Source: a virus (taxonomy: Duplodnaviria; Heunggongvirae; Uroviricota; Caudoviricetes). Taken from it: 12,561 bases of DNA. The first letter of the stretch is position 1. Each line of letters opens with the position of its first letter. The DNA lies in IMG/VR virus record IMGVR_UViG_2529293043_000042; one strand, written 5' to 3'. This document shows, piece by piece, positions 523 through 3,500 of the stretch. A program made the position numbers.

Positions 523-3500
523 TGAGTTCACAGATAAAACACTCTCCAGGAAACCCGGGGCGGTTCACTAAGTTGAGAATCGGTGATTCTGTCCATTGGT
601 TTATTCCACCCATAGGTTTTACGCAGAATGGCAAGCAGCACTTTAAACTGTCGCTTGGTCAGATCTGCGCCTGAATAAGCCTCAATCAGCATATTTGATA
701 GTCTGGCGTAACCATCATCGAGATCTGCCACATTACGCTCCTGTTCGGCAAAGTTACCTCTGCCGAAGTTGAGTATTTTTGCTGTATTTGTCATAATGAA
801 TCCTGTGGATTGATCCAGTAATTCCCTCAGAATTGCATATCAATTTGCTTAGAGTCCCCGGCGGCCACCGGGGATTTTTTCTTTGTGATTCCATCCAATG
901 CATACTTAAAAGCCCTGCTAATCGGACTGATGTCTGATGCCATTCCGAAAGCACACAAGACCGAAGCAATAAACCGCCAGTCCGTTCTGCTTATCTTCGA
1001 TTCATGACAGCCAATCATCTTTGCCAGACCGCGCTGGGTAAGCGTTGACAGGTTGATGAGTAAATCAGTTTCAGCGCGATCAATTTCTCGCTGTGTTGGC
1101 TTGCTGTAGCTTGCTTGTGCCATTTGTTAATTTTCCTATATTGATATTGAGTTATAGCGGCACACCCAATGGATTTGCCGCTGATGTTTGCTCACCCGGT
1201 TAGAGGTGAAAGGCCATGATGAAAGAGCGGGTACTGCTTAGGCGGCTTTGTTACTGGATGGAGGGAAAACATCATCCAAAGAACATTGGCACCCTAACTT
1301 CCTGAGGCCTTCTACGATCATTCGGCAATCGTTAAGGCCAGGAGTACGGATATTCAGCTCATAGTTGGCGATGCGGGATTGCCCCCAACCAATTGCCGAA
1401 GCTAGTACAGCTTGCGAAACTCCGATTTTTTTTCGCTGCTGGGCAATTTTGTTCATTGCGGTCTCCCTAGCATTAATCACACACCCATTACACACAATTT
1501 GTGATTAACAGTCAACCTCAATTCGTGTACAGAGTTCAATCACGTTGCGTGTTACATTTAAGGGATGAAAACGATGCATGAAATTATCGGGGAAAGGATC
1601 AAGTCCCTTAGAGAAGCTAAAGGACTTAGCCAGGCTCAATTGGCCAAGCTTTGCGGCTGGGCTGCGCCTTCACGCCTGGGGAACTACGAGTTAGGAACAA
1701 GAAAGGTTAGCGCGGATGACGCGCTGGTTCTTGGGGCGGCACTCGGCGTATCTCCGGCAAAAATAATGTTTGGCGAGGATTCAGACGCCGTATTTCGCCA
1801 ATATGAATACCCGTTATTTTCTTCAGTGCAGGCCGGGCCATTTTCGGAGGTGGGAAGCTACACAGCCAGCGATGCAAAGGCATGGGTCCCAACGACCACA
1901 AAAGCCAGCGAAAAAGCTTTCTGGCTTGAGGTGAAGGGGCATTCAATGACGGCGCCTCAGGGGGTTCGTCCAAGTTTTCCGGAAGGCATGCTGATACTCG
2001 TTGATCCGGCTGAGCCGGTAGAGTCTGGGGATTTCTGCGTGGCTTCTGCAAATGGTGATTCAGAGGCAACGTTCAAGAAGTATGAGAAGGATGCAGGGGT
2101 TAGTTACCTGGTACCTTTAAACCCGGCATATAGAACCCTGGATTGCGACCATAGCTGCCGCATCATAGGCAAGGTAGTTAAGGCGCAGTGGCCTGAAGAG
2201 ACGTTTGGCTGATCGGCAAGGTGTTCTGGTCGGCGCATAGCTGGTAATCCAACTTTTCCCTGTTCTTTTTATGCAAATTAATCTAATGAAATTGAAAAGA
2301 TTTTTACCTATTTTGTTGGTTCAGGAGAACATAAATGAGCGATAAACAAGAAGTTTCCTTAGCACATATCAATGATGTGCTGGAGTCCAAAAATTATATT
2401 GAAACTAATGCTGATGGGGTTGTAACCATCGGAACGGATAACAATGGCTACGAAGTTTTTAACTTCGTTTTTCTCAATAGCACCCCTGTCATCGGCCATA
2501 TGAATGGCGAAATCGCAGTGGCAGGAATGCAGCGCACTAAGGTTGCGTCCGTGACTTTAAGTAAACAGAAGGCCTTCGATTTCTATCAGTCCTTGAAAAG
2601 CATGTTCGAGGAATAAAAGCTGATGAATGCAGCTCAATCATCTTTGGATGAGGGAAAGCTAGTAATTGCTTACTCTGATAAGAATGGCTCTACAGTAGGG
2701 CTGGAATTTTCTTCTGTAGCATCAAGCCAAGCAACGCTCTTGATGAAAGCTTGTTCTGTTGCTGCTTCAGATAAAGAAAAACGGATTGTCACATCGGTTG
2801 TGATGGATGATACTGAGATCATTCAAACAACAAGTGATGATGGAGGCGACGACATGGATAAGCGATTAGCAGTTCTTGAAGCTGAAGTTGCGCACATCAA
2901 GAGCAGCATGGCAGGAATTAAAGAGGATACCCGGAAAATATCTTCTGATTCTACTGACGCCAAAAGAGACACCGCTGTACTTTTACAGAAGAGCCTGGAT
3001 TTTGATGCTTCATTATCTAAGAAACCATCGGTTGACTACTTTGAAGCTAAATTTTCCGCTTTGGAAACCAAGATAGCAGATGTAAAAGTATGGATGCTCG
3101 GGGTTCTCTTGGCCTCGCTTGCTATGCCAACTATATTTTTCCTAATAAACTTGTACCTTAAGAAAGGTCAGTAATTTAGCAAATCCGGCCACCGAGCCGG
3201 GTTTTTTATTGCCCGCCGATCACTATCAGGACAGCACCTGCCCGCCGGTCCAAACTATTGATTAAATTACTATAATTCTTAATACAACTCCCATATCCCG
3301 CCATCTCGCCACCACCCCATTCGCTCGTTTTTCGAACTTTTCAGCACCCATCCTGCTGTTGCCACCGACTTAAGTAAGCAAAACCATCGCGGGTAAAACT
3401 ATTTACACAAAAAAATCATACACATAACGTGTCACACCTTTATTTTACACATTTTGTGATTGACCATTAAATCACAATATGTGACTATCATTTCCATCAG

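What the first reader, a model, noticed from the sequence alone, without database searches (positions are those of the whole stretch)
2213..3216. Uncharacterised two-gene cassette in the rexAB-equivalent slot between cI and OL/PL: candidate lysogen-expressed exclusion/defence module
Seen in sequence: cI (1565-2212) is followed by a 122-bp AT-rich spacer and then two tightly linked ORFs (2335-2616, 93 aa; 2623-3174, 183 aa), each with its own SD, only 6 bp apart, same strand as cI, closed by a clean intrinsic terminator (3184-3208) just before OL/PL. Established knowledge: in lambda this slot holds rexA-rexB, co-transcribed with cI in the lysogen and causing abortive infection; the repressor-proximal slot of lambdoid prophages is a recurrent site for such cargo. 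Neither protein resembles RexA/RexB or any family I can name. The second protein is a coiled-coil protein with one C-terminal membrane anchor, an architecture suited to a membrane-targeting effector. Inference: a small soluble partner plus a membrane-anchored effector expressed from a prophage in the repressed state.
Basis: partly seen in the sequence, partly recalled or inferred. Interest (0 to 1): 0.85.

Follow-up and report, generated by a model that had tools for sequence, protein, structure and literature searches.

The report
Repressor-linked two-gene prophage cassette
Two real, lysogen-expressed genes of unknown function (a small soluble protein and a tail-anchored coiled-coil membrane protein) occupy exactly the slot that holds the rexAB exclusion genes in phage lambda; they belong to a family that always follows a prophage repressor, so they are a good but untested candidate for a new phage-exclusion system.

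Summary

The same pair (99.5% identical) sits in coliphage HK544, which carries lambda's cI. There it replaces rexA-rexB exactly, from 35 bp after cI to the Timm terminator. GenBank already annotates it so, as "conserved hypothetical" proteins.

Both proteins were detected in proteomes of uninduced O157 cultures, and both are under purifying selection. Neither matches Pfam, NCBIfam, PADLOC or any solved structure. They match only PHROG families of unknown function.

New here: B's core is a Gly-rich lead-in, an M-E-x-R-LAxLE..V..IK coiled coil and a C-terminal membrane anchor. It defines about 300 protein clusters in Enterobacterales prophages. In every locus examined with a classifiable upstream gene, the order is repressor (cI-type, RacR-type or P22 Mnt), then a small partner gene, then B. 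The partner co-varies with B's N-terminal domain. The membrane anchor is the least conserved part.

A defence function is plausible but untested. Interest is moderate: a new variant of a known kind.

The parts
1565..2212 (+). cI-type prophage repressor (215 aa; HTH_3 + Peptidase_S24). It is the upstream gene of the presumed PRM/PRE transcript that carries the cassette.
   Evidence: OR operators and PRM are annotated in VT1-Sakai at window ~1490-1555 (offset 1788). The operator repeat is seen.
2186..2247 (+). Left module junction: the last 27 bp of cI plus the first 35 bp downstream, 98% identical to lambda. Homology to lambda stops at 2247.
2248..3181 (+). The exchangeable cassette itself. It is unique relative to lambda, ~99% identical to HK544, and occupies exactly the position of rexA-rexB.
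   Evidence: GC is 0.36-0.45 against ~0.53 in cI.
2335..2616 (+). [not shown]
   Evidence: Protein detected in PMC3936929. dN/dS ~0.08.
2623..3174 (+). [not shown]
   Evidence: Protein detected in PMC3210124.
2650..2766 (+). B N-terminal globular domain (residues ~10-48: beta-hairpin plus helix). It is variable between relatives and co-varies with the ORF-A type.
   Evidence: (pLDDT 72-76).
2767..2853 (+). B acidic/Gly-rich linker, predicted disordered (residues 49-77), ending in DGGDDM.
   Evidence: (pLDDT <50 for residues 59-75).
2839..3018 (+). B family-defining core: DGGDDM-DKRLAVLEAEVAHIK followed by the long coiled-coil helix (residues 73-132). This is the most conserved part of the family.
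   Evidence: Invariant columns. The motif is present in 107 of 123 relatives. Helix 78-132.
3088..3159 (+). B C-terminal hydrophobic anchor (residues 156-179), followed by only KKGQ.
   Evidence: KD19 = 2.15; about 120 of 123 relatives end in such a segment. The anchor sequence type is swapped between relatives.
3181..3211 (+). Intrinsic terminator, homologous to lambda Timm. It marks the right module junction.
   Evidence: Annotated as Timm in HK544 and as the terminator for the pRM transcript in VT1-Sakai.
3418..3488 (+). OL operators and PL (context: the downstream boundary of the slot).
   Evidence: VT1-Sakai annotation (offset 1788) and the operator repeat family D1.

Best explanation
ECs2991-ECs2992 is a repressor-coupled accessory ('moron') operon.

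Expression (inferred from anatomy and from the homologous lambda arrangement, and consistent with proteomics): it is transcribed together with cI from PRM in the lysogen, and from PRE during establishment. Transcription ends at the Timm-homologous terminator, so both proteins are made while the prophage is repressed.

Architecture of B (shown): no signal peptide; a small variable N-terminal domain; a flexible acidic/Gly-rich linker; a conserved coiled coil; and a hydrophobic segment at the extreme C-terminus.

Topology and assembly of B (inferred): it is a tail-anchored inner-membrane protein, probably oligomeric through the coiled coil. Almost all of its mass lies in the cytoplasm.

Role of A (inferred from strict co-variation and tight translational linkage): it is a small acidic soluble protein that works with B's N-terminal domain.

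Most likely function (inferred from the slot, the synteny and the modular diversification; not shown): exclusion of other phages. The variable A + B-N unit would act as the specificity or sensing part. The conserved membrane-proximal coiled coil would act at the cytoplasmic face of the inner membrane. It would either trigger abortive infection or block a membrane-associated step of the incoming phage. Blocking the phage from the periplasmic side is less likely.
For: - Exact replacement of rexA-rexB in a lambda-immunity phage, between conserved junctions.
- Same strand as cI, with no terminator between them and a shared Timm terminator.
- Both proteins detected in uninduced O157 cultures.
- Purifying selection on both genes.
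- B-core family: 296 clusters, and 72 representatives at E<=1e-10 among 1.84 billion proteins. Nearly all named sources are Enterobacterales and all are labelled hypothetical.
- Synteny: the order repressor, small gene, B holds in 18 of the 20 IMG/VR and genome loci scanned. All 16 distinct upstream proteins are HTH_3 repressors (11 with Peptidase_S24), and so are those of every encoding contig read.
- In P22-like phages the pair follows Mnt, in the slot where P22 carries sieA (PMC2629481).
- Phages with identical or near-identical repressors carry different A/B variants. A identity tracks B N-domain identity in every comparison, a diversification pattern typical of phage-host conflict genes.
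- The cI-N slot is an established site of lysogen-expressed exclusion cargo such as rexAB and bstA (PMC8585504 and PMC7067206).
Against: - No phenotype is known. No homology to any described defence protein in PADLOC 2.0, Pfam or NCBIfam.
- Structure models have low (A, pLDDT 47) or moderate (B, 65) confidence, and fold searches gave nothing significant.
- The co-variation of A with B's N-domain could be plain physical linkage, because the two coding segments are adjacent and the conserved core may simply be a recombination site.
- The slot also holds non-defence cargo in some phages.
- The membrane anchor is poorly conserved, which argues against a specific pore-forming effector.
- The window's own prophage already carries sieB next door.
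- Defence catalogues newer than 2023 could not be searched, and Brenes & Laub 2025 is not held in the library.
Confidence: 0.45

Rival explanations
1. A lysogenic-conversion factor for host fitness, unrelated to phages. The pair would be a membrane-tethered scaffold that alters envelope or stress physiology or colonisation, comparable in logic to lambda bor/lom or to the tail-anchored stress proteins ElaB/YqjD.
For: - Expression in the lysogen.
- ECs2991 is listed among proteins up-regulated in unfiltered rumen fluid relative to LB.
- The tail-anchored coiled-coil architecture resembles ElaB/YqjD-type proteins (own knowledge).
- No similarity to any defence family.
Against: - No sequence similarity to DUF883/ElaB or any host family.
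- The rapid modular swapping of A + B-N among phages with the same repressor is more typical of conflict genes than of housekeeping-like fitness factors.
- The family was found only in prophage repressor-proximal slots.
Confidence: 0.2
2. A modulator of the prophage's own life cycle: the lysis-lysogeny switch, induction efficiency or lysis timing. This would parallel the role recently proposed for lambda RexA/RexB in assisting the transition from lysogeny to lytic growth (own knowledge: Thomason et al. 2021).
For: - Obligatory linkage to the maintenance repressor in all contexts.
- Co-transcription with cI is implied by the anatomy.
- It occupies the rex slot.
Against: - The same A/B types are coupled to unrelated repressor classes: S24 cI types below 30% identical, RacR-type, and the ribbon-helix-helix Mnt. 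That argues against a specific interaction with one repressor or operator system.
- Membrane anchoring is not expected for a switch factor.
Confidence: 0.15
3. A toxin-antidote (addiction) pair that stabilises the prophage. B would be a membrane-active toxin held in check by A, with no role against other phages.
For: - A small acidic upstream gene is tightly coupled (6 bp) to a membrane protein.
- A co-varies with part of B.
Against: - B's membrane segment is interchangeable and poorly conserved, which is unlike known small membrane toxins.
- Both proteins accumulate to detectable levels in normal cultures.
- There is no homology to any toxin-antitoxin family.
Confidence: 0.1
4. A lysis-accessory protein of the XhlA/DUF2730 kind (coiled coil plus transmembrane segment, acting with holins), or a lipoprotein as suggested in PMC3210124 (lipobox 'MKAC44S').
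For: - Distant B relatives give weak hits to XhlA (22 of 111) and DUF2730 (16 of 111).
Against: - The window protein does not hit XhlA or DUF2730 even at E<=1. The weak hits sit alongside generic coiled-coil families such as FlaC_arch, LPP and bZIP.
- The gene is in the immunity region, not the lysis cassette, and is expressed in the repressed state.
- There is no N-terminal hydrophobic leader before Cys44 (maximum KD in the N-terminal third is about 0.9). Cys44 lies inside a predicted helix and is absent in some relatives. The paper itself flags 'no hydr LS'.
Confidence: 0.03

Closest known systems
Lambda RexA-RexB (abortive infection/exclusion operon co-transcribed with cI)
   Same: - Identical genomic slot, with identical flanking junctions: the cI 3' end plus 35 bp on the left and the Timm terminator on the right.
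- A two-gene operon on the cI strand.
- One soluble and one membrane protein.
- Expressed in the lysogen.
   Different: - No sequence similarity to RexA or RexB; no Pfam or PADLOC hit.
- A is 93 aa against 279 aa for RexA.
- B has one C-terminal anchor and a long cytoplasmic coiled coil, whereas RexB is a polytopic 4-TM protein.
- There is no evidence for an internal promoter like pLIT.
P22 SieA and the immI 'ant moron' slot
   Same: In P22-like phages (UPF_BP1, locus L013) a B-core protein with its small upstream partner follows mnt and lies between mnt and gene 16. This is where P22 carries sieA (PMC2629481). It is lysogen-expressed and repressor-linked.
   Different: No sequence relationship to SieA was found. 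SieA is an integral membrane protein that blocks DNA entry, whereas B is predicted to be almost wholly cytoplasmic.
BstA (BTP1) and Stk (933W): single-gene cargo downstream of cI
   Same: The locus architecture matches: downstream of the repressor and presumably sharing its promoter, in a recognised hotspot of mosaic diversity between cI and N (PMC8585504; PMC7067206; Stk from own knowledge).
   Different: The protein families are unrelated. BstA is a soluble DNA-associated Abi protein and Stk is a kinase. Here there are two genes and a membrane anchor.
XhlA / DUF2730 / CCDC90-like (DUF1640): coiled coil plus one transmembrane segment
   Same: The overall architecture, and weak profile hits for distant family members.
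   Different: The hits are below the curated thresholds and are shared with generic coiled-coil families. The window protein itself gives no hit. The genomic context (lysis cassette or cellular) is different.
PHROG families phrog_12039, phrog_12602 and phrog_3556
   Same: Full-length, highly significant membership (E = 7e-65 and 7e-124). B's C-terminal two-thirds also matches phrog_3556, to which the UPF_BP1 protein belongs.
   Different: These families carry no functional annotation, so membership does not explain what the proteins do.

Membership tests
Lambda RexAB | Proteins homologous to RexA and to the 4-TM RexB | tested here: not met
   No Pfam, NCBIfam or PADLOC hit for either protein at E<=1. 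B has a single hydrophobic segment.
Lambda RexAB | Located between cI and Timm/OL, on the cI strand, as a two-gene operon | tested here: met
   In HK544 the pair replaces rexA-rexB exactly.
Lambda RexAB | Expressed in the repressed lysogen | tested here: inconclusive
   Both proteins were detected in uninduced O157 cultures (PMC3936929 and PMC3210124). The transcript and its promoter were not mapped, and a contribution from spontaneously induced cells is not formally excluded.
Lambda RexAB | Excludes superinfecting phages by abortive infection | not testable with these tools
   This needs plating and survival assays.
Known anti-phage defence systems (PADLOC-DB 2.0) | A significant match to any defence-protein model | tested here: not met
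   0 families for A and for B at E<=1. Catalogues newer than 2023 were not available.
Tail-anchored membrane proteins (architecture class) | A single hydrophobic segment within about 30 residues of the C-terminus, with no N-terminal signal or TM segment | tested here: met
   The hydrophobic segment is residues 156-179 of 183, and nothing before it is hydrophobic enough (KD19) to be a signal or TM segment. The same holds for about 120 of 123 relatives, and none has an N-terminal TM segment. Topology itself was not tested experimentally.
XhlA (PF10779) / DUF2730 (PF10805) | A profile match above Pfam's gathering score | tested here: not met
   No hit for the window protein at E<=1. Only weak hits (best 1.6e-5 and 2.8e-6) in 22 and 16 of 111 distant relatives, alongside generic coiled-coil families.
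Bacterial lipoproteins | An N-terminal signal peptide with a lipobox cysteine | tested here: not met
   No hydrophobic leader. Cys44 lies in a predicted helix and is not conserved in all relatives.
PHROG phrog_12039 (A) and phrog_12602 (B) | A full-length profile match | tested here: met
   E = 6.7e-65 over 1-93 of 93, and E = 6.8e-124 over 1-183 of 183. Both are annotated 'unknown function'.
Repressor-coupled A-B cassette family (defined here) | The order repressor, small (88-125 aa) gene, B-core protein on one strand. B carries the M-E-x-R-[LIV]-A-x-L-E..V..IK motif and a C-terminal anchor. | tested here: met
   Window. Family.
Toxin-antitoxin pair | B is toxic alone and is neutralised by A | not testable with these tools
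   No homology to toxin-antitoxin families. Expression experiments are needed.

The most novel reading that the evidence does not exclude
The A-B cassette is the founding example of an undescribed, widespread class of prophage defence in Enterobacterales. It would consist of a trimer- or oligomer-forming tail-anchored stalk protein that holds an exchangeable sensor (the B N-domain plus its cognate small partner A) at the cytoplasmic face of the inner membrane. It would be hard-wired to the maintenance repressor's transcript in lambda-like, Rac-like and P22-like phages alike. Sensor and anchor modules would be shuffled at the conserved GGDxMExR-LAxLE motif.
Probability: 0.35. Interest if true: 0.65.

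Novelty: new variant of a known kind. Interest (0 to 1): 0.5.

Why it matters
Repressor-linked cargo such as rexAB, sieA, bstA and stk is where temperate phages keep functions that act while they are dormant. Most such cargo tested so far turned out to be phage exclusion.

This pair is carried by the Stx1 prophage of E. coli O157:H7 and by a cultivable laboratory coliphage (HK544). It is made in ordinary cultures. It belongs to a family of about 300 protein clusters that has no annotation at all.

If it is a defence system, it would add a mechanistically different type: a tail-anchored cytoplasmic coiled coil with a swappable sensor. It could also influence which phages, including other Stx phages, can superinfect O157. 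If it is not, it is still an abundant, conserved lysogen protein pair of unknown role.

The question can be tested directly with existing strains.

Tried and rejected
- Pfam, NCBIfam and PADLOC scans of both proteins found nothing meaningful.
- Profile searches against all PDB sequences found nothing for A and only weak coiled-coil matches for B, such as CC-Tri and a trimeric autotransporter fragment.
- AlphaFold2 with the available shallow alignments gave pLDDT 47 for A and 65 for B.
- An internal duplication (A related to B's N-domain) was rejected by hhalign.
- The other small partner types (the L062/L063 type and the UPF_BP1 type) might be distant A homologues. The alignments are collinear but only at E = 0.0017 and 0.016, so this is left open.
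- The scan of species-representative genomes found only one degenerate locus. The A3 alignment was too diverse for a pattern search.
- I checked whether phage epsilon34's unnamed pair downstream of its repressor (PMC2629481) belongs to this family. It did not appear in the tblastn searches.
- I looked for the window's cI with different cargo in E. coli complete genomes. None was found; the cI and the cassette are always linked there.
- The lipoprotein reading from PMC3210124 was rejected (see the rival explanations).
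Full report
**Where the window comes from**

The region 2213-3216 is 100% identical to the Stx1 prophage VT1-Sakai (AP000400). It is also 100% identical to prophage Sp15 of E. 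coli O157:H7 Sakai, to EDL933 and to about 90 other complete E. coli genomes, mostly O157:H7.

- leftward of OR, on the minus strand: cro, cII and a truncated O;
- rightward, on the plus strand: cI, the cassette, OL/PL, nutL, a phage-21-type N, sieB (minus strand), cIII/kil/gam/bet/exo, and int at the window's end.

**Checking the observation**

- cI is 1565-2212, with HTH_3 plus Peptidase_S24.
- The spacer is 122 bp and AT-rich (GC 0.36).
- ORF-A is 2335-2616 and ORF-B is 2623-3174. Each has a Shine-Dalgarno sequence, and they are 6 bp apart.
- A hairpin with a T-run lies at 3181-3211.
- No terminator-like site lies between cI and ORF-A, and the spacer contains no consensus promoter.

The ORFs are genuine genes.
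- Homologues from other genera give dN/dS of about 0.08 for A and 0.14-0.36 for B.
- ECs2991 was quantified by iTRAQ among only 394 O157 proteins (PMC3936929).
- Both studies used cultures that had not been induced.

**The slot and its boundaries**

Phage HK544 carries lambda's own cI and operators, and it has this pair (99.5% identical) between cI and a terminator annotated 'Timm' (GenBank EF120455).

Pairwise comparison shows the following.
- Window and HK544 are about 99% identical over window 2186-3221.
- Homology of both to lambda ends 35 bp after the cI stop codon (window 2247).
- HK544-lambda homology resumes at the rexB stop codon and Timm hairpin (window ~3182).

The cassette 2248-3181 is therefore an exact allelic replacement of rexA-rexB, flanked by conserved junction sequences. 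The window's terminator is the Timm homologue.

The cI-N interval is described in the literature as a hotspot of mosaic, lysogen-expressed cargo such as rexAB and bstA. That description traces back to Degnan et al. 2007, as cited in PMC8585504 and PMC7067206. So the existence and placement of the pair are already on record. Its function is not.

**What the proteins are**

Neither protein matches Pfam, NCBIfam or PADLOC 2.0. Neither matches any PDB sequence, apart from weak coiled-coil similarities for B. Both belong to PHROG families of unknown function: phrog_12039 and phrog_12602. B's C-terminal two-thirds also matches phrog_3556.

B is 183 aa. The model (pLDDT 65) has four parts:
- a small beta-hairpin-plus-helix domain (residues 10-48);
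- a disordered acidic/Gly-rich linker (49-77);
- helices at 78-132 and 137-182;
- within the second helix, the only hydrophobic segment (156-179), followed by just four residues.

There is no signal peptide. The lipobox 'MKAC44S' proposed in PMC3210124 has no hydrophobic leader and lies in a predicted helix, so the lipoprotein reading is rejected. B is best described as a tail-anchored inner-membrane protein with its bulk in the cytoplasm. That topology is inferred, not tested.

**The family and its synteny (the main new result)**

Close homologues of each protein form only about 21 clusters, all in Enterobacterales.

B is mosaic:
- the N-domain is variable;
- the stretch DGGDxM-(E/D)xR-LAxLE..V..IK is nearly invariant;
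- there are at least four unrelated C-terminal anchor sequences.

Searching with the core alone found 296 clusters. A full HMM search of 1.84 billion representatives found 72 at E<=1e-10. All are 90-185 aa, all are 'hypothetical', and none has a Pfam domain.

Among the best 123 relatives:
- about 120 end in a hydrophobic segment 0-11 residues from the C-terminus;
- none has an N-terminal TM segment;
- 107 carry the motif, and 91 of those have a Gly-rich lead-in.

More distant members hit only generic coiled-coil or coiled-coil-plus-TM Pfam families (FlaC_arch, LPP, DUF1664, XhlA, DUF2730, CCDC90-like), all weakly.

Genomic context is strikingly uniform.
- In Serratia, Citrobacter, Enterobacter and Salmonella contigs, the order on one strand is repressor, small gene (88-125 aa), B.
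- The same order holds in 18 of 20 non-redundant loci scanned, 19 from IMG/VR and one from a species-representative genome. The two exceptions are one locus with an IS inserted between A and B, and one degenerate copy.
- All 16 distinct upstream proteins are HTH_3 repressors. Eleven have a Peptidase_S24 domain and the other five are RacR-like.
- In P22-like phages (UPF_BP1 and locus L013) the pair follows the maintenance repressor Mnt, between mnt and gene 16. This is where P22 carries sieA (PMC2629481).

The cassette is thus coupled to three different kinds of lysogeny repressor.

**Modularity**

The table below gives percent identities for selected locus pairs. R is the repressor, B-N is B's N-domain, and a dash means the value is not quoted here.

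| Comparison | R | A | B-N | B core | B C-terminus |
|---|---|---|---|---|---|
| Window vs L036 | 91 | 37 | 39 | 82 | 77 |
| L037 vs L049 | 100 | 38 | 32 | 42 | 11 |
| L058 vs L061 | 65 | 100 | 100 | 53 | 10 |
| Window vs an Enterobacter locus (L009) | 26 | 83 | 86 | – | 16 |

In every comparison with A at 73% or more, B-N is at 71% or more. In every comparison with A at 38% or less, B-N is at 39% or less.

There are several kinds of partner gene:
- the window type;
- a Serratia/Salmonella type that is clearly homologous to it;
- two further small-protein types with only borderline profile similarity (E = 0.0017 and 0.016);
- a zinc-ribbon type, phrog_4293.

The co-variation fits a physical partnership between A and B's N-domain. 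It could also be plain linkage, because the two coding segments are adjacent and the conserved core is an obvious recombination site.

**Interpretation**

Shown:
- the operon anatomy;
- the exact rexAB replacement;
- protein expression in uninduced cultures;
- purifying selection;
- the tail-anchored coiled-coil architecture;
- the family-wide coupling to repressors;
- the modular shuffling.

Inferred:
- co-transcription with cI from PRM/PRE, by analogy with lambda and from the absence of an intervening terminator;
- the N-in topology of B;
- oligomerisation of B;
- an A/B-N interaction.

The function is not shown. I consider phage exclusion the most likely role (about 0.45), for three reasons. 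Both slots it occupies are classical exclusion slots. It replaces a known Abi system in an otherwise lambda-identical immunity region. Its variable-sensor and conserved-core pattern is typical of conflict systems.

Because B's mass is cytoplasmic and its anchor is interchangeable, I favour action at the cytoplasmic face of the membrane. That would mean sensing a phage product and then aborting the infection, or blocking a membrane-associated step. I favour this over both a periplasmic injection block and a dedicated pore.

The rivals are:
- a host-fitness conversion factor (0.2);
- a modulator of the prophage's own switch or induction (0.15);
- a pure addiction module (0.1);
- an XhlA-like lysis accessory or a lipoprotein (0.03 or less).

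**Comparison with known systems and novelty**

Functionally and positionally the closest system is lambda RexAB, but the defining homology test fails. The same is true for SieA, BstA, Stk and XhlA. The pair is a full member only of uncharacterised PHROGs.

The kind of thing is well known: repressor-linked, lysogen-expressed cargo. The protein families and the architecture are not described as a system anywhere I could search. I therefore rate it 'new variant of a known kind'.

Caveats:
- PADLOC-DB 2.0 dates from 2023;
- Degnan et al. 2007 and Brenes & Laub 2025 could not be read;
- no phenotype exists.

**Verdict**

The finding is real, correctly described and a reasonable lead, but its central functional claim is untested. 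A specialist would not be surprised by another rex-slot cargo. The family-wide repressor coupling and the sensor/anchor modularity found here make it a well-defined, directly testable candidate, with HK544 available as a laboratory phage. Interest is 0.5.

Noticed in passing
window 1-527 (IS) and 528-794 (-): An IS3-family element (annotated IS1203; transposase fragment at 7-525) interrupts replication gene O, leaving only its first ~88 codons. In Sakai Sp15 the O gene is intact. The exact junction is present in only about 18 complete O157 genomes. The window's prophage is therefore probably replication-defective.
   Followed up: partly
window 3976-4557 (-): A SieB superinfection-exclusion homologue (PF14163, E = 1e-25; phrog_1301) sits directly after N on the opposite strand. 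The prophage therefore already carries one recognised exclusion gene next to the cassette.
   Followed up: partly
window 5245-5303 (+): An Rfam Lambda_thermo match (the cIII thermoregulator RNA element) at 88.5 bits, above the gathering score, at the start of cIII.
   Followed up: no
window 3210-3400 (+): A strongly C-rich, G-poor stretch (GC skew about -0.4) lies between the Timm-like terminator and OL. It contains a 12-nt direct repeat, TGCCCGCCGATC / TGCCCGCCGGTC, at 3210 and 3239. It is absent from lambda and HK544 at this position. It could be a Rho-utilisation-like backup terminator region, but this is unexplained.
   Followed up: no
window 2335 versus L001 1544, L006 5713 and L009 5713: ORF-A starts with ATG in the window but with GTG in HK544 and in several homologues from other genera. 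This may mean different translation efficiency of A relative to B.
   Followed up: no
L004 6699-6896, L006 6552-6749, L014 5555-5746, L015 5410-5616 (all on the - strand): In many related loci a small ORF of 63-80 aa with no Pfam hit lies immediately downstream of B on the opposite strand, before the early-left genes. The window has no counterpart: there is no ORF of 40 aa or more in 3175-3541.
   Followed up: no
L013 5376-5744: In one P22-like prophage a third gene follows the pair. It encodes 122 aa with an N-terminal hydrophobic leader and belongs to phrog_2651 (unknown function). It may be additional cargo in the sieA slot.
   Followed up: no
L057 1050-2309: In one IMG/VR locus a 419-aa transposase-like ORF is inserted between the A-like gene and B. 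This shows that the pair can be split by IS insertion.
   Followed up: no
window 3494-3878: The N region is about 97% identical to sequences in about 1,500 E. coli genomes, including BL21(DE3) derivatives. This agrees with the VT1-Sakai note that N is of the phage-21 type, and shows that the N module is far more widespread than the cI-cassette module.
   Followed up: no
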